This document shows, in pieces, positions 30,201-35,186 of a DNA stretch of 64,000 nt. The notes under the pieces were generated by a model. It saw only the letters and a list, made by a program, of their open reading frames with translations, searched no databases and was not told the DNA's origin. The stretch's first letter is position 1; every line of letters begins with the position of its first letter. Source of the stretch: Escherichia phage WPEC4; sequence record PV682947.1; one strand, given 5' to 3'. The position numbers were made by a program, and so were the translations under genes.

Positions 30201-30497
30201 ATGCCTAAACTAAAACGTGGTCGTGGAAGACCAACAGCCGAAATGCAACAGATTTACGCAATGGATGCGGCGCAAGCAAGTGTAAAAGAATTATTTGCAG
30301 AGCATTATTTAGAAGCTATGCGGTATATTGTTGAACTTGTTAATGATAAGGATGCAGCAAAACCTCTCCGCTTCCAAGCAGCTAAAGCTATTAAAGAGCA
30401 AGTAGAAGAATGGTTAGAAGAACATTATGAAGCTATGGAAGAAGAAACCCCTGCCGTGCAGAATACAGATGACGTTCCTAAAAAGATCGTAATCTAA
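30201..30497 (+). CDS. small protein with AT-hook-like N-terminus (possible DNA-binding regulator)
   Basis: 98 aa, N-terminal KRGRGRP, strong AGGAGG RBS. Confidence 0.45.
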   Translation: MPKLKRGRGRPTAEMQQIYAMDAAQASVKELFAEHYLEAMRYIVELVNDKDAAKPLRFQAAKAIKEQVEEWLEEHYEAMEEETPAVQNTDDVPKKIVI

Positions 30498-30546
30498 TCC
30501 CTCTCCTCTCTTGGGGCTTTGCCCCTCCTCCTTGTTATTTTTAACA

Positions 30547-30576
30547 CCCCTCTCCGAAAGGTTAGGGGCTTTTTTA
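30547..30576 (+). terminator. terminator/attenuator hairpin
   Basis: CCCCTctccgaaaggttAGGGG followed by CTTTTTT; preceded by a second hairpin GGGGCTTTGCCCC. Confidence 0.5.
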
Positions 30577-30624
30577 CAAGTCCATTTTTAAAAGCAGCTA
30601 CTGGTGGTCCGAAGAAGCCTGAAA

Positions 30625-31685
30625 TGAGCGTATTTGCTGCAACAACAGATGCAAGTAAATCTGTATTCGCTCCAAGCGTGTTAGATGCCAGTCCTGTTTA
30701 TGCACCAGCGGCACCGCAAGAAGTTCCAGTTTTGCCTTCTATGACCCGACAAGAGATCGAAGAGATTGGGGCAGAGGCAGGAACAACCTTGCGTTCCTTG
30801 AATGCCGAGGTATTAAAACATCAACGTAGTAATCAAGGCGATCAGATGAGTGAACGACTCACAGCTTTGATTAAACAGGCAAAACAACTTGATCCAAACT
30901 CTATTAAACAAAGCAAGGGTATTACTAAACTCATTAAAAAAGTTATGGGTATGAAAGAAGACCTGTTTGGGGAGTTTGATAATGTTAATAACCGTATTGA
31001 AGAGTTGGTAAAGAACCTTCAAATGGATATTCGCAAAGAAGAAGATTCCTTGGTATATCTTGAAAAGCTACATCAAGCTATTGGACAATATGCTGCAAGT
31101 TTGAACCGAGATATGCAGCTTCTAACAGCAACCTATGAAAAAGAAGAACAAGCTTTGGCTGCTCTTCCAGAAGATGCAGTAGAACAGCGACAAGTGATCC
31201 GAGATACTTTGGATCTTCTGGAGATTCGTATTGCAGATTTAAAAGCATTGCGCCTACTGTGTGTCCAAATGGGACCGCGTGTACAAGGTATGCAAAAAGT
31301 TTCTGCAAGCTTAATGCGATCTGCGCGTAACATAGTAAATAATGTTATTCCTGCTTACTCTGCTAACTTCTCAATGTATATCGAGAGCTTACGTCAAATG
31401 AAAGCAGCAGAGACGCAGAATAACGTTCTTGATGAATTTAACCTGGCAATTAAACTGGGTAGCGATCTTGCCACACAGAATCAGATCGAAGCAGCAGCAC
31501 TGGCTAACCGTCAAGTGTTGGATATTGAAACTCTGCGTCACGATCAGGAAAACTTGGTTAAGATGTTGGAAGAAACTAACCGCATCAATACGGAAGCCCG
31601 TGCTGCTCGTGTTGATTATATTAATGAAGTTCAATCTCTGGAAGACGGGATGGTAGCTGCTGTGAAACGAGGGCTTGGTAAATGA
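30625..31685 (+). CDS. TelA-like (toxic anion resistance family) helical protein
   Basis: About 353 aa, all-helical coiled-coil-rich; sits beside vWA and TerD-like genes; ORF track start 30519 runs through terminator hairpins. Confidence 0.4.
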
Positions 31686-31879
31686 GAATCCGTATCTATA
31701 TGATCGATGAAGACATTGGTGTCCGTTATGATGACGAAAAACGATTCGCACCGATGGGAGGCATATATCCCCCAAGCGTTCTAGCAGTTTGTCGTGATTG
31801 TTATATTTATGAAGGTTGTCGTAACTTCCGTAAATTCGAACTCCTTGCAGATATTGACTTCAATGAAGAGGAGGAGTAA
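31682..31879 (+). CDS. hypothetical small protein
   Basis: 65-aa ORF, start overlaps upstream stop. Confidence 0.35.
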   Translation: MRIRIYMIDEDIGVRYDDEKRFAPMGGIYPPSVLAVCRDCYIYEGCRNFRKFELLADIDFNEEEE

Positions 31880-32052
31880 TGAAAATATTACGAGTGAATA
31901 TTGAAACTGCTTGGTGTGGATGCAATGAGGTTGTGGATATCGAAATTGAAGATGATATGTCTCAAGAGGATATAGAAGATCTTGCACACGAAACCTTTCA
32001 GGATTATTGTAATTACGGGTTTCATATTTTAGAGGAGGAAGAAGATGTATAA
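31879..32052 (+). CDS. hypothetical acidic small protein
   Basis: 57-aa ORF translated by hand (MKILRVNIETAWCGCNEV...), below track cutoff. Confidence 0.3.
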   Translation: MKILRVNIETAWCGCNEVVDIEIEDDMSQEDIEDLAHETFQDYCNYGFHILEEEEDV

Positions 32053-33006: not shown

Positions 33007-33277
33007 ATTCAATATTCAAGAAGAAAAGTGTCAGGATTTACCTATTGCTTTCGAAGACCTTGGCATAGGGGACACATTCATGTATTATGCTGCCTATGAA
33101 GACGCAGGGTTGGATACCTACCGTAACTTGGTGTTCATTAAAAGTTCCCCAAACAGTGCGATCTGTATTAGTGGATCACTATCACAACGAGGCTATACTC
33201 ATTGCATCCCACCAGACACAAATATGGTGGAAGTAGATTTAGAAGTTACCAATATCACACTTAAGAAGGAGAAATAA
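32999..33277 (+). CDS. small protein, paralog A1 (partner of vWA gene)
   Basis: GTG start after AGAGGAGG; shares GDTF.Y...GLD...VEL.VT.ITLK pattern with 34299..34568. Confidence 0.4.
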   Translation: MFRFNIQEEKCQDLPIAFEDLGIGDTFMYYAAYEDAGLDTYRNLVFIKSSPNSAICISGSLSQRGYTHCIPPDTNMVEVDLEVTNITLKKEK

Positions 33278-33278
33278 T

Positions 33279-34073
33279 ATGTCCGAGAAAATCAGCCTGA
33301 AAAAACGTCAAGAAAACCTTGCTTTCTCTCTGAAAAAGAATAAGAACCTGAACGAAGGTAAGATTGTTCTTCGTGTAGCTTGTGCGCTAGATATTTCTGG
33401 TAGTATGCATGGTCTATATGCTCGTGGGGTAGTGAGTGATTTTGTAGGTAAACTGCTTCCTTTTGGTATGCTGTTCGATGATAATGAACAGATTGATATG
33501 TGGGCCTTCAATACGAGTTCTCAAGAGCTTACTCCAGCAACAGCAGACGTTTACGATGATTATGTTGGTAAGTGTATGCGTAATGTTCGCATTGGAGGTG
33601 GAACAAATTACGCTCCTGTAATGGCAGATATCTATGATGAGTATTTTGGCACTGTTACCAAATATGTTACCACTAAACAAGTGGTACAAGAGCAGGCTCC
33701 AAAGAAAGGCTTCTTTAATCGTCTGCTTGGTAAAACTGAAACAGTATCTGTAGAGCGTGAAAAGGTTGTAGCTGTATCTGAACCAAGTGCTGACGTTACT
33801 CCTGGTGTTGTATTCTTCCAGACAGACGGTGAGAATGGTGATCCTAGTGCTGTTCGTCGTCTTATTGAAGAGAATAAGAATAAACCTATTTATTGGTTCA
33901 TGGTTGGCGTTGGTAATGAGAAGTTTGGCTTCCTGAAAGAACTGGCAAATGCTTACGATAATGTTGGTTTTATTGGCATTAAAGATTTAGACTTGACAGA
34001 TTCAGAGCTTTATGACAAACTCTTATCTGAAGAGTTCGGAGAGTGGGTTGTTAAAGTAGGTGCTAAAAAATGA
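33279..34073 (+). CDS. vWA-domain protein (TerY-like) with TerD-like ISLKK leader
   Basis: MIDAS motif ALDISGSM, later GGGTNYAPV and FFQTDGENG; N-terminus MSEKISLKK resembles TerD start. Confidence 0.55.
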   Translation: MSEKISLKKRQENLAFSLKKNKNLNEGKIVLRVACALDISGSMHGLYARGVVSDFVGKLLPFGMLFDDNEQIDMWAFNTSSQELTPATADVYDDYVGKCMRNVRIGGGTNYAPVMADIYDEYFGTVTKYVTTKQVVQEQAPKKGFFNRLLGKTETVSVEREKVVAVSEPSADVTPGVVFFQTDGENGDPSAVRRLIEENKNKPIYWFMVGVGNEKFGFLKELANAYDNVGFIGIKDLDLTDSELYDKLLSEEFGEWVVKVGAKK

Positions 34074-34318
34074 TCGACGAGCTTGCCTCTCAAGTCGTAG
34101 AAAATTATTGGCGCGAGAGAGAAGCTTTCATTATGCGCAGTCTCAAAGAATACTTCATTGGGACTGTGCGGATGGAAGATATTGTAAGTAGAGTAGAGAT
34201 TCATGTATGGCCCGATTATGAAGAATGGGTTGACAAAGAAAATGAAAATGCTATAATTCTTCGTATAGACAAACCGGAGATAACATTAGGAGGAAGAAGT
34301 GTTAAACTTCGAAATTGA
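34070..34318 (+). CDS. hypothetical protein
   Basis: 82-aa ORF. Confidence 0.35.
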   Translation: MIDELASQVVENYWREREAFIMRSLKEYFIGTVRMEDIVSRVEIHVWPDYEEWVDKENENAIILRIDKPEITLGGRSVKLRN

Positions 34319-34568
34319 TGAGCAAAAAGTAAATAAACGATGCCTTACCATTAAAGATTTGGATGTAGGAGATACTTTCGTCTATGAAAATGCATTTGAC
34401 GAAAATGGTTTAGACCTTAGTGAAGTCATTGTTTATTTAAAAGTAGATGATGGGGAAAATGATTATTCTGCTGTAGAACTAAACCATCATGCACAATTAG
34501 TAACAATCCAAAACACATCTAAGCTTTTGGAAGTAGAATTGACTGTAACTGGTATTACACTTAAATAA
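34299..34568 (+). CDS. small protein, paralog A2 (partner of TerD gene)
   Basis: 89 aa; paralog of 32999..33277. Confidence 0.4.
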   Translation: MLNFEIDEQKVNKRCLTIKDLDVGDTFVYENAFDENGLDLSEVIVYLKVDDGENDYSAVELNHHAQLVTIQNTSKLLEVELTVTGITLK

Positions 34569-34583
34569 TAGAGGAGACAAAAG

Positions 34584-35186
34584 ATGACTGATAAAATTTC
34601 CCTGAAAAAAGGCTCTAGCGAAAAAATTTCCCTGAAGAAAGTTGCTCCGGCTCTGAAAGAACTGCGCCTGGAATTCTCTTGGAAATCTAATTCTAAACTG
34701 GATCTGGATGTAAGTGCACTGGTTTGTCGTCATAATGCTGCTGGCAATCCTGAAATGCTGTCTGCACGTCACCTGGTTTGCTATGCTAACAAGTTTGATC
34801 CTGAACGTTCTACTTTCGCTGGCGACGATGTTCGTGATGGGACTGGCAGCATGGAGCAGATTGATATTACTCTGGCTAAAATCTCTCCTGATGCACAAGA
34901 GATTGCCTTTGTTCTGACCATTGATGATGATACAGGTCTGAAACGTTTTGGTCATGCTTCTGAAGGTATGCTTAAAATCTTTGACTCCGAACGTAATGTG
35001 GAAATTCTGGATTTTGACTTCCTGGCTCCTGAAGTAGCTGGCAACACAATCTGCCACGTGGCCTCCTTGGTTCGTGAAGATGGGGAATGGAAGCTGAAAG
35101 CATATGGTGTAGGTAAAGCGGGTCTGGATATTTGTGATGTGGTGATGGCCTTCGGTGGTAAAAAAGAATGGTATGAATGTCCATAA
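34584..35186 (+). CDS. TerD-family (tellurium-resistance-like, Ca-binding) protein
   Basis: MTDKISLKKGSSEKISLKK..., LDLDVSALVC, GDDVRDGTGSMEQID, AFVLTIDDD fit TerD domain pattern. Confidence 0.7.
   Translation: MTDKISLKKGSSEKISLKKVAPALKELRLEFSWKSNSKLDLDVSALVCRHNAAGNPEMLSARHLVCYANKFDPERSTFAGDDVRDGTGSMEQIDITLAKISPDAQEIAFVLTIDDDTGLKRFGHASEGMLKIFDSERNVEILDFDFLAPEVAGNTICHVASLVREDGEWKLKAYGVGKAGLDICDVVMAFGGKKEWYECP

What the first reader, a model, noticed from the sequence alone, without database searches (positions are those of the whole stretch)
30201..35186. Phage-borne Ter-like module: TelA-like, vWA (TerY-like) and TerD-like proteins
Seen in sequence: 34584..35186 has TerD hallmarks (ISLKK double leader, LDLDVSALV, GDDVRDGTG, VLTIDDD); 33279..34073 has a vWA MIDAS (DISGSM, GGGTN, TDGE) behind a TerD-like ISLKK leader; 30625..31685 is a helical protein of TelA size. 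Established: TerD, TelA and vWA (TerY) co-occur in bacterial Ter stress-response neighbourhoods. Inference: a virulent phage carrying this module between its tRNA array and replication genes suggests a role in handling host membrane or chemical stress, or superinfection. The intervening small ORFs have no recognisable homology.
Basis: partly seen in the sequence, partly recalled or inferred. Interest (0 to 1): 0.75.

Follow-up and report, generated by a model that had tools for sequence, protein, structure and literature searches.

The report
Known Ter gene cluster in phage
The TelA, TerF-type vWA and TerD genes are real, but they are the already annotated Ter cluster shared by phAPEC8- and phi92-like E. 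coli phages. Here an odd, probably artefactual junction cuts them off from the TerC half of the cluster, and their role in infection has never been tested.

Summary
Pfam gives TelA for 30624..31685 (E 2.7e-33), vWA-TerF-like for 33279..34073 (E 8.9e-38, MIDAS residues invariant) and TerD for 34584..35186 (E 1.5e-28; 2KXT E 1e-15).

The window is a Phapecoctavirus (phAPEC8-like myophage). The three genes are at least 95% identical in DNA in more than 60 GenBank phages, many already annotated [quoted passage not shown]. Phage Ter systems have been discussed in print for phi92, phiKp34, phiPsa374 and jumbo phages.

Corrections:
- The vWA is TerF-C-type, not TerY.
- ORF 30201..30497 is unrelated to the module.
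- The position next to the tRNA array is not the family norm. In relatives TelA follows HAD, PRTase_3, Macro, TerC and SprT-like genes.
- The window has a breakpoint at 30575/30576 that removes the TelA start codon. Sibling WPEC records break at the same base with other partners, which suggests misassembly.

New details: two paralogous small SH3-like proteins (phrog_11278) sit directly upstream of vWA and of TerD. Divergent members did so in all six further contigs whose flanking genes could be read. The window's only perfect sigma-70 consensus promoter precedes the TerD pair.

Function is inferred only. The most likely role is an early membrane-guard or superinfection-exclusion module.

The parts
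30539..30576 (+). Terminator hairpin of the tRNA-array side (CCCCTCTCCGAAAGGTTAGGGG followed by TTTTTT) and the non-canonical junction at 30575/30576. This is not part of the Ter module; it marks the module's truncated left edge.
   Evidence: homology to relatives' TelA starts at 30576, three nt after their ATG; window 24199-30576 matches Mt1B1_P17 100000->93626, and window 30576 onward matches 39110 onward. One search lists a different, overlapping hairpin at 30566-30583; this terminator was read directly from the sequence.
30624..31685 (+). TelA-family protein, 353 aa from the first in-frame ATG. Relatives start 17 codons earlier (MTSPFLKAATGGQKKPE) at an ATG that is missing here.
   Evidence: Pfam PF05816 E 2.7e-33; phrog_5890 matched from profile position 18; 100% identical to the SKA64 protein over 353 aa, and dN/dS 0.07 against Justusliebigvirus KMB37.
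31682..31879 (+). Small ORF of 65 aa (phrog_24000), function unknown, specific to Phapecoctavirus.
31879..32052 (+). Small acidic ORF of 57 aa (phrog_1997; weak match to DUF7167, just below the cut-off).
32045..32443 (+). ORF of 132 aa (C-terminal half matches phrog_14200), function unknown.
32443..33006 (+). ORF of 187 aa (phrog_14928), function unknown. It is conserved in Justusliebigvirus (76% identity, dN/dS 0.14), and an ORF of similar size sits at the same position in metagenomic contig L012 (188 aa; homology not tested).
   Evidence: no Pfam match.
32834..32862 (+). Sigma-70-like promoter, 11 of 12 (TTGACA-17-CATAAT), upstream of the G/vWA gene pair.
   Evidence: identical in relatives.
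32999..33277 (+). phrog_11278 paralogue G, 92 aa. A small SH3-like beta-barrel protein directly upstream of vWA; the vWA Shine-Dalgarno sequence lies inside its last codons.
   Evidence: Relatives annotate the ATG at 32999.
33279..34073 (+). Stand-alone vWA-TerF-like protein, 264 aa. It has an intact MIDAS, a conserved N-terminal (I/V)SLxK...(I/V)SLKK leader, and a lineage-specific insert at about aa 125-172.
34070..34318 (+). ORF of 82 aa (phrog_22387), absent from Justusliebigvirus.
34230..34257 (+). Perfect sigma-70 consensus promoter (TTGACA-16-TATAAT, with TG), upstream of the J/TerD gene pair. It is the only 12-of-12 site in the 64-kb window.
   Evidence: 0.13 expected per window in shuffles; conserved in relatives.
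34299..34568 (+). phrog_11278 paralogue J, 89 aa, 33% identical to G. It sits directly upstream of TerD and ends in the double stop TAATAG, followed by a Shine-Dalgarno sequence.
34584..35186 (+). TerD-domain protein, 200 aa.
   Evidence: 99.5% protein identity across Phapecoctavirus and dN/dS 0.02-0.13.
35204..35223 (.). GC-rich hairpin (GAGGGGGAGAAATCCCCCTC) after TerD. It is a likely end of the transcription unit, although the T-tail on the + strand is weak.

Best explanation
SHOWN (about 0.97 sure). This stretch is the distal half of the Ter gene cluster conserved in Stephanstirmvirinae phages (Phapecoctavirus, Justusliebigvirus/phi92 and relatives infecting Klebsiella and Citrobacter). 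It runs TelA, five small or unknown ORFs, phrog_11278, vWA-TerF-like, one ORF, phrog_11278, TerD. In canonical genomes the proximal half lies directly upstream on the same strand: HAD hydrolase, PRTase_3, Macro, TerC and an SprT-like protease. The whole cluster sits in the early/middle region between the anaerobic ribonucleotide reductase genes and the primase/helicase and DNA polymerase genes.

INFERRED (about 0.4 sure). Host RNA polymerase transcribes the genes early from sigma-70-type promoters. The products then assemble at the cytoplasmic face of the inner membrane. TerC would be the membrane component, helical TelA the sub-membrane component, TerD the Ca2+-binding sensor, and the vWA protein would bridge partners through a metal ion held at its MIDAS. 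The complex would keep the infected cell's membrane and proton-motive force intact. It would also block secondary insults such as DNA entry by superinfecting phages, pore-forming colicins and membrane-targeting abortive-infection effectors until programmed lysis. This mirrors the phage-inhibition and colicin-resistance phenotypes of plasmid ter operons. The two small SH3-like proteins are proposed to be partners of the two proteins that carry the shared (I/V)SLKK leader.
For: Identity: Pfam, PHROG and PDB matches; invariant MIDAS residues.

Conservation: at least 95% DNA identity in more than 60 phages. TerD is found in 146 phage records and vWA in 209. Purifying selection: dN/dS 0.07-0.23 against Justusliebigvirus for TelA, the 187-aa ORF, G, vWA and TerD.

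Synteny: the order TerC ... TelA ... vWA, TerD, SleB-like hydrolase persists in a 144-kb phage contig whose proteins are only 29-54% identical. TelA ... vWA, TerD, hydrolase also persists in contigs L014 and L015. The upstream partners TerC (E 4e-40), PRTase_3 (E 2.3e-41), Macro, HAD and SprT-like were confirmed in the 100%-identical WPEC6 copy.

Expression hints: the window's only 12-of-12 sigma-70 promoter lies before J/TerD and an 11-of-12 site lies before G/vWA. All genes are co-oriented with the replication genes.

[quoted passage not shown] Iyer et al. proposed that phage Ter systems act against superinfecting phages (PMC7824862, section 3.4.10).

SH3-like partners: phrog_11278 members were immediately upstream of vWA-TerF-like or TerD in all six further contigs with readable flanks, and in both the window and KMB37.
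Against: No experiment on any phage Ter gene was found. Published authors state that the function is unknown (PMC11162368, PMC9796965, PMC11256456).

No protein of the module matches a PADLOC defence model.

The phage TerD has replaced three acidic residues of the canonical Ca2+ motif: GDNRTGEGDGDDE becomes GDD-VRDGTGSME. Ca2+ binding may therefore be altered.

No TerB was found among the 30 proteins scanned, so this is not the terBCDE core that gives the plasmid phenotypes.

Promoter calls are consensus matches only, and they lie inside coding sequence.

The link between the SH3-like proteins and Ter genes could be inherited gene order within a single phage clade.

In this window TelA lacks its usual start codon and TerC is absent. 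If the junction is real, the module is split.
Confidence: 0.4

Rival explanations
1. Metal-handling module. Together with TerC, which belongs to a family implicated in Mn2+ export and metalation, the Ca2+-binding TerD and the MIDAS vWA would buffer or deliver divalent cations in the infected cell. This could supply phage metallo-enzymes or the exported SleB-like hydrolase encoded next door, rather than excluding competitors.
For: TerC is part of the canonical cluster. The MIDAS is intact. The TerD fold is a Ca2+-binding one: the solved Klebsiella TerD matches, and its Ca2+ binding is my own knowledge of Pan et al. 2011. The SleB-like Hydrolase_2 gene stays next to TerD in five divergent contexts. 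A K. pneumoniae study links terC to zinc as well as tellurite resistance (PMC12054061, title and abstract).
Against: No metal transporter or chaperone signature other than TerC was found. The acidic Ca2+ motif of the phage TerD is partly degenerate. This reading does not explain TelA or the nucleotide-type enzymes (PRTase, HAD, Macro).
Confidence: 0.2
2. Nucleotide-signal or counter-defence system. The PRTase_3, HAD and Macro enzymes of the proximal half would make or destroy a ribosylated, nucleotide-like small molecule. TerD, vWA and TelA would be its sensors or effectors, and the system would blunt host abortive-infection or NAD-depleting immunity.
For: PRTase_3, HAD and Macro are tightly linked to the Ter genes in relatives. 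PRTase_3 is retained in the distant contig L008. In a Neobacillus prophage, TerD, vWA and TerC sit beside a Prs-like gene and NAMPT. Iyer et al. describe the PRTase and HAD enzymes as the signal-biosynthesis arm of Ter systems (PMC7824862).
Against: None of these enzymes is in the window. The chemistry is entirely hypothetical. Phage lineages such as phiPsa374 and phiKp34 are reported to carry terC, terD, terF and telA, with no PRTase or HAD mentioned in the passages read (PMC9796965, PMC8386662).
Confidence: 0.15
3. Host-benefit 'moron': the genes would give the host real tellurite or xenobiotic resistance, as the database label 'tellurite resistance' implies.
For: Family names and GenBank annotations. 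Some authors suggest a stress-tolerance AMG role (PMC11256456).
Against: Phapecoctaviruses are virulent myophages (my own knowledge), and a virulent phage kills its host within one cycle. TerB, part of the terBCDE core (my own knowledge; cf. the 'minimal ter operon' study PMC8123226), is absent. Identity to plasmid TerD is only about 31%. Others judged tellurite resistance unlikely for incomplete phage sets (PMC9796965).
Confidence: 0.03
4. The junction is real. The source phage would carry a genuine inversion of about 54.5 kb (Mt1B1_P17 coordinates 39110-93625). This would place the TelA-TerD half next to the tRNA array, split the Ter cluster and decapitate TelA, so in this particular genome the module would be decaying or rewired.
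For: The window is collinear with a simple inversion model. The same two breakpoints recur in WPEC1 and WPEC2. An in-frame ATG 17 codons downstream keeps the whole Pfam domain.
Against: In every relative whose flank was inspected the cluster is contiguous, including WPEC6, which is 100% identical over the module. More than 60 relatives hold the stretch. The three sibling records each join the breakpoint to a different partner. They are 155-161 kb long with 351-381 CDS, against 145-152 kb and 260-306 elsewhere. WPEC1's flank is a mosaic of read-sized fragments. The junction has no flanking inverted repeat; there is only a 1-nt overlap.
Confidence: 0.25

Closest known systems
Ter cluster of phAPEC8 / phi92-type phages (Stephanstirmvirinae)
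   Same: It is the same genes. DNA identity is 95-100% to more than 60 Phapecoctavirus records. Protein identity to Justusliebigvirus is 81% (TerD), 68% (vWA) and 80% (TelA), with the same gene order. Records already carry the labels TelA-like, TerD family and 'vWA found in TerF C-terminus'. phi92's 'ter cluster genes' are noted in PMC11162368.
   Different: This window lacks the TerC, PRTase, HAD, Macro and SprT-like half and the TelA start codon because of the 30575/30576 junction. Compared with phi92-like phages, Phapecoctavirus has an extra ORF I plus a second phrog_11278 copy between vWA and TerD.
Plasmid/chromosomal terZABCDEF operon (IncHI2 R478; Klebsiella and E. coli O157 ter islands)
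   Same: It shares the TerD domain, the TerF-type vWA domain and, in relatives, TerC. [quoted passage not shown]
   Different: The phage has no TerB and only one TerD paralogue instead of five. Its vWA is a stand-alone protein, not fused to TerD. It has TelA, which R478 ter lacks. TerD identity is about 31%. The setting is a virulent phage.
Ter systems of jumbo and other phages (Acinetobacter ME3, Caulobacter phiCbK-like, Klebsiella phiKp34, Pseudomonas phiPsa374)
   Same: The same component set: TerC, TerD, TerF-vWA and TelA, with or without PRTase and HAD. The same unanswered question and the same superinfection hypothesis apply (PMC7824862, PMC8386662, PMC9796965). tblastn links them at 25-39% identity.
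   Different: They are separate phage lineages with different gene orders. No tblastn hit reached the phrog_11278 proteins in those lineages, because the exhaustive search found only about 10 clusters of small proteins.
Bacillus subtilis yceCDEFGH and RK2 kilA/telAB loci (from my own knowledge; not tested here)
   Same: They co-occur TerD paralogues, TerC (YceF) and TelA (YceH), or have TelA within the klaA-klaB(telA)-telB locus.
   Different: They are bacterial or plasmid stress loci with no vWA-TerF-like protein, and sequence identity is low.

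Membership tests
TerD domain family (PF02342) | Profile match above the curated threshold over the whole domain | tested here: met
   100 bits against a cut-off of 25.3; residues 5-179 match profile positions 3-177 of 187.
TerD domain family (PF02342) | Sequence similarity to a solved TerD structure across the beta-sandwich | tested here: met
   2KXT E 1.1e-15 over residues 5-183; 3IBZ E 1.9e-14.
TerD domain family (PF02342) | Acidic Ca2+-binding motifs (DLD; GDN(R/L)TGEGDGDDE; HD/DD after strand TI). 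The motif definition is from my own knowledge of Pan et al. 2011. | tested here: inconclusive
   LDLD and TIDDD are kept. The central motif reads GDD-VRDGTGSME, so three acidic positions are replaced. The DVRDGTG core is also conserved in the distant phage L008. Ca2+ binding itself cannot be tested with these tools.
vWA-TerF-like (PF10138) | Profile match above threshold | tested here: met
   130.9 bits against a cut-off of 29.4. All 60 homologues found carry PF10138.
vWA-TerF-like (PF10138) | Intact MIDAS (DxSxS ... T ... D) | tested here: met
   D38, S40, G41, S42, T109, T182, D183 and G184 are invariant in the 16-sequence alignment.
TerF proper (TerD-vWA fusion) | N-terminal TerD domain fused to the vWA domain | tested here: not met
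   The protein is 264 aa and stand-alone. Only a short (I/V)SLxK...(I/V)SLKK leader precedes the vWA domain. The same leader lies between the two domains in TerD-vWA fusion proteins P0060 and P0061.
   PF00092 scores only 18.9 bits, below its 23.8 cut-off. No other domain was found, and no phosphatase or kinase gene lies nearby.
TelA (PF05816) | Profile match above threshold over the full-length domain | tested here: met
   115.9 bits against a cut-off of 30; residues 42-344 match profile positions 13-327 of 332.
TelA (PF05816) | Intact gene with the start codon used by orthologues | tested here: not met
   The orthologues' ATG, which overlaps the SprT-like stop codon as ATGA, is replaced by the junction. 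The next ATG is 17 codons downstream at 30624.
Tellurite-resistance determinant (terBCDE core / terZABCDEF) | Presence of TerB and TerC together with TerD and TerE | tested here: not met
   No TerB (PF05099) match in any of the 30 proteins scanned. TerC is absent from the window and present only in relatives. There is a single TerD.
Tellurite-resistance determinant (terBCDE core / terZABCDEF) | Confers tellurite resistance, phage inhibition or colicin resistance | not testable with these tools
   This needs expression and MIC or plating assays.
Phage Ter system sensu Iyer et al. 2021 (PMC7824862) | TerC + TerD + TerF-type vWA + TelA, optionally with PRTase and HAD, encoded by a tailed phage | tested here: met
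   Met for the lineage. In this window only the TelA, vWA and TerD part is present.
Known anti-phage defence systems (PADLOC-DB 2.0) | Match to any defence-system protein model | tested here: not met
   No family matched at E <= 0.01 for any of the 10 proteins.

The most novel reading that the evidence does not exclude
The small SH3-like phrog_11278 proteins would be dedicated partners (chaperone, adaptor or regulator) of the two Ter proteins that share the N-terminal (I/V)SLKK...(I/V)SLKK leader. Each pair would be driven by its own strong early sigma-70 promoter. The phage Ter module as a whole would be an early membrane-guard that excludes superinfecting phages and colicins or counters membrane-targeting abortive infection. 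That would give the long-enigmatic Ter family its first defined function in a tractable E. coli phage system.
Probability: 0.2. Interest if true: 0.6.

Novelty: already known. Interest (0 to 1): 0.28.

Why it matters
Ter proteins (TerD, TerC, TelA, TerF) are widespread in bacteria, plasmids and many phage lineages, yet they have no accepted mechanism. This cluster sits in easily grown E. coli phages with dozens of near-identical isolates, so it is a convenient place to test what Ter proteins do during infection. As a discovery it adds little, because the genes are annotated and discussed already.

The useful outputs here are:
- the correction of the family label (TerF-type vWA, not TerY);
- the recognition that the window shows only half of the cluster, behind a probably artefactual junction;
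- the consistent pairing of a small SH3-like protein with vWA and with TerD.

Tried and rejected
- AlphaFold2 on the 89-aa protein with a 2-sequence alignment failed (pLDDT 33). An 11-sequence alignment worked.
- The exhaustive profile search for phrog_11278 returned giant multi-repeat proteins. These were Ig-like repeat proteins (He_PIG, V-set, DUF11, fn3) whose scores come from summing many weak stretches. I treated them as spurious for homology.
- The k-mer-limited homologue search for the same protein found only near-identical copies.
- PADLOC gave no matches. NCBIfam gave none for nine of the ten proteins and only a far sub-threshold match for TerD (16 bits against a 200-bit cut-off).
- A PDB sequence search found no solved relative of TelA or of the vWA protein.
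- I considered read-through fusion of J to TerD, which are in the same frame. I rejected it because J ends in the double stop TAATAG followed by a strong Shine-Dalgarno sequence.
- I looked for microhomology at the junction. An 8-nt ATTTTTAA occurs near both breakpoints but not at the crossover, so it does not explain the junction.
- Two key papers (Anantharaman 2012, PMC4104200; Schwarzer 2012, PMC3457257) are not held. They are cited only through papers that quote them.

Full report
WHAT IS THERE

The + strand between 30.6 and 35.2 kb carries a tight run of co-oriented ORFs. Three of them match Pfam well above the curated cut-offs:
- 30624..31685 is TelA (PF05816, E 2.7e-33, 303 residues aligned to positions 13-327 of the 332-position model).
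- 33279..34073 is 'vWA found in TerF C terminus' (PF10138, E 8.9e-38).
- 34584..35186 is TerD (PF02342, E 1.5e-28).

TerD also aligns over residues 5-183 with the solved Klebsiella TerD (2KXT, E 1.1e-15) and with 3IBZ. No solved relative was found by sequence for TelA or the vWA protein.

An alignment of the vWA protein with 15 homologues down to 30% identity shows the MIDAS residues invariant: D38-x-S40-G41-S42, T109 and T182-D183-G184.

Three corrections apply:
- The TelA ATG is at 30624; 30625 is out of frame.
- The vWA is of the TerF-C-terminal family, not TerY. The general VWA model is below threshold and there is no TerY-type context.
- The '(I/V)SLKK leader' of the vWA protein is a conserved part of that family. 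It is invariant in bacterial stand-alone homologues and sits between the two domains in TerD-vWA fusion proteins.

WHOSE GENES THESE ARE

The region is 95-100% identical in DNA to more than 60 Phapecoctavirus genomes, which are phAPEC8-like E. coli myophages of the subfamily Stephanstirmvirinae. Many of those records already label the genes 'tellurite resistance', 'TelA-like protein', 'TerD family protein', 'general stress protein 16U' or 'vWA-TerF-like'.

- TerD occurs in 146 phage records. Identity is at least 99% in Phapecoctavirus, 81% in Justusliebigvirus/phi92-like phages, 85% in Klebsiella relatives, and 25-30% in Caulobacter and Brevundimonas jumbo phages.
- The vWA protein occurs in 209 records from many lineages, including Pseudomonas phiPsa-type, Klebsiella FBKp34, Rhizobium, Bacillus, Xanthomonas and Streptomyces phages.
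- Identity to plasmid ter-operon TerD is only about 31%.

THE FULL CLUSTER AND THE ODD LEFT EDGE

In SKA64, UP17, Mt1B1_P17, KMB37 and WPEC6, TelA is preceded on the same strand by NrdD/NrdG, HAD hydrolase, phosphoribosyltransferase, Macro, TerC, several unknown ORFs and an SprT-like protease. WPEC6 is 100% identical to the window over the module. The SprT-like stop codon overlaps the TelA ATG in the Phapecoctavirus records. I confirmed PRTase_3 (E 2.3e-41), TerC (E 4e-40), SprT-like (E 4e-9), and weak Macro and HAD matches.

None of this is in the window. Homology to relatives begins at base 30576, three nucleotides after their TelA ATG. What lies upstream is the terminator of a 98-aa ORF that follows the tRNA array.

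Mapping to Mt1B1_P17 shows that window 24199-30576 equals 100000->93626 reversed, and window 30576-64000 equals 39110->72305. In the canonical genome the tRNA array is followed by a small ORF, the Rz-like spanin and the large terminase.

The same two breakpoints recur in two sibling records from the same source:
- WPEC2 joins the tRNA side to the inverted SprT-like to HAD half.
- WPEC1 joins TelA to a mosaic of 80-330-bp fragments from all over the genome.

The three sibling WPEC records are 155-161 kb long with 351-381 CDS, against 145-152 kb and 260-306 elsewhere. I therefore rate the tRNA-TelA adjacency as about 75% likely to be an assembly artefact and about 25% likely to be a real inversion. 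In the window as given, TelA lacks its usual start and its first 17 residues. The entire Pfam domain is retained from the ATG at 30624.

THE INTERVENING ORFS

Each has a PHROG family of unknown function. The table compares them with Justusliebigvirus and with a 144-kb metagenomic phage contig, L008.

| Gene | vs Justusliebigvirus (KMB37) | vs distant contig L008 |
|---|---|---|
| TelA | dN/dS 0.07 | 29% identity |
| 187-aa ORF (32443..33006) | dN/dS 0.14 | not recognisable |
| phrog_11278 copy G (before vWA) | dN/dS 0.18 | not recognisable |
| vWA | dN/dS 0.23 | 53% identity |
| TerD | dN/dS 0.13 | 54% identity |
| SleB-like hydrolase | 75% identity | 43% identity |

The 65-, 57-, 132- and 82-aa ORFs and the second phrog_11278 copy (J) are lineage-specific. 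L008 also has TerC upstream and PRTase_3 downstream. The Ter genes are thus the conserved core and the small ORFs are variable.

THE SMALL SH3-LIKE PARALOGUES

ORFs 32999..33277 and 34299..34568 are paralogues: 33% identity, E 7e-16, both phrog_11278. An exhaustive profile search found only about ten clusters of 87-93-aa relatives, plus spurious multi-repeat Ig-like giants.

The gene sits immediately upstream of a vWA-TerF-like or TerD gene in the window (both copies), in KMB37, and in all six further contigs whose flanking genes could be read. This holds even though the members are only 28-47% identical and the position switches between the two targets. This is a new, modest observation. It may reflect a functional pairing with the two proteins that share the (I/V)SLKK leader, or it may be inherited gene order within one phage clade.

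EXPRESSION SIGNALS

The only perfect sigma-70 consensus in the 64-kb window (TTGACA-16-TATAAT with TG; 0.13 expected by shuffling) lies at 34230-34257, before the J/TerD pair. An 11-of-12 site lies at 32834-32862, before the G/vWA pair. Both are unchanged in relatives, but they lie in coding sequence, so this conservation is weak evidence. A GC-rich hairpin follows TerD.

HOW IT MOST LIKELY WORKS

Shown: the identities, the conservation and the purifying selection described above. The genes lie among early and middle genes for nucleotide metabolism and replication. The module has an intact MIDAS and a partly degenerate TerD acidic motif (GDNRTGEGDGDDE becomes GDD-VRDGTGSME). It has no TerB and no match to known defence-system models.

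Inferred: the proteins are made early. With TerC they form a membrane-associated, metal-dependent complex that protects the infected cell's inner membrane and excludes secondary invaders. This follows from the phage-inhibition and colicin-resistance phenotypes of the R478 ter cluster (Whelan 1995, cited in PMC8386662 and PMC9796965). It also follows the model of Iyer et al. for phage Ter systems (PMC7824862, section 3.4.10). I give this about 0.4.

Rivals and their weights:
- divalent-metal handling or metalation, 0.2;
- a nucleotide-derived signal or counter-defence role tied to PRTase, HAD and Macro, 0.15;
- true tellurite resistance for the host, 0.03.

No experimental test of any phage Ter gene was found. 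Several papers state that the function is unknown (PMC11162368, PMC9796965, PMC11256456).

COMPARISON AND NOVELTY

This is the phAPEC8/phi92 Ter cluster itself, so it is already known. It is annotated in GenBank, and phi92's ter genes are noted in the literature (PMC11162368, citing Schwarzer 2012). Analogous clusters are described for phiKp34 (PMC8386662), phiPsa374 (PMC9796965) and jumbo phages (PMC7824862).

It differs from the plasmid terZABCDEF operon in five ways. It lacks TerB. It has one TerD instead of five. Its vWA is stand-alone. It adds TelA. Identity is only about 31%.

It should not be filed as TerY or as a tellurite-resistance determinant. Interest is therefore low to moderate. 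The open question of what Ter proteins do for a lytic phage is real, but it is not new.

VERDICT

- Observation: confirmed.
- Interpretation: partly supported.
- Novelty: already known.
- Interest: 0.28.

Noticed in passing
window 30539-30576: Non-canonical junction. The tRNA-array side (ending in a terminator) is fused to TelA three nt after the relatives' start codon. Relative to Mt1B1_P17 the window looks like an inversion of 39110-93625. WPEC1 and WPEC2 break at the same bases with different partners, and WPEC1's flank is a patchwork of read-sized fragments, so misassembly is likely.
   Followed up: yes
window 44797-45528, inside the DNA polymerase ORF 43049..46381: The DNA polymerase I gene carries an in-frame insertion of about 244 aa that is absent from Mt1B1_P17. 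It starts with Cys and ends ...TGN|C. It has weak Intein_splicing (E 0.0077) and LAGLIDADG (E 0.16) matches, so it is probably an intein.
   Followed up: partly
window 32999-33277 and 34299-34568; loci L010-L016: Two paralogous small SH3-like proteins (phrog_11278) each sit directly before vWA or TerD. Divergent relatives kept the same adjacency in all six further contigs with readable flanks.
   Followed up: yes
window 34230-34257: This is the only perfect sigma-70 consensus promoter in the 64-kb window. It is embedded in the 82-aa ORF upstream of the J/TerD pair.
   Followed up: partly
window 35285-35806; L008 12052-12561; L010 12357-12866; L014 5303-5827; L015 6271-6795: A SleB-like cell-wall hydrolase (PF07486) with a hydrophobic N-terminus stays within about 1 kb downstream of TerD, even in phages whose Ter proteins are only 29-54% identical. 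This hints at linkage between the endolysin-like enzyme and the Ter genes.
   Followed up: partly
L009 7404-11928 (Neobacillus vireti, prophage-like region): TerD, vWA-TerF-like and TerC lie directly beside a Prs-like gene and a NAMPT gene. From my own knowledge, this pair resembles phage NAD+-reconstitution genes. The region also has an integrase, Phage_rep_O and DndB.
   Followed up: no
window about 28765-28852: ARAGORN tRNAs. It does not call the element annotated as tRNA-Tyr in WPEC2 and flagged 'tRNA-Pseudo-GTA' in Mt1B1_P17, so this is possibly a degenerate tRNA.
   Followed up: no
database records MG065650.1, MG065645.1, OP562383.1: Records named 'Campylobacter phage B15/A145' and 'Acinetobacter phage vB_AbaM_ABPW7' are near-identical to E. 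coli Phapecoctavirus or Justusliebigvirus genomes, so their host labels look doubtful.
   Followed up: no
window 36508-39650: A run of four glycosyltransferase genes lies between the Ter/hydrolase block and the primase/helicase gene. One has a weak match to TET-associated glycosyltransferase (PF20691, E 0.0012). Their target, DNA or envelope, is unknown.
   Followed up: no
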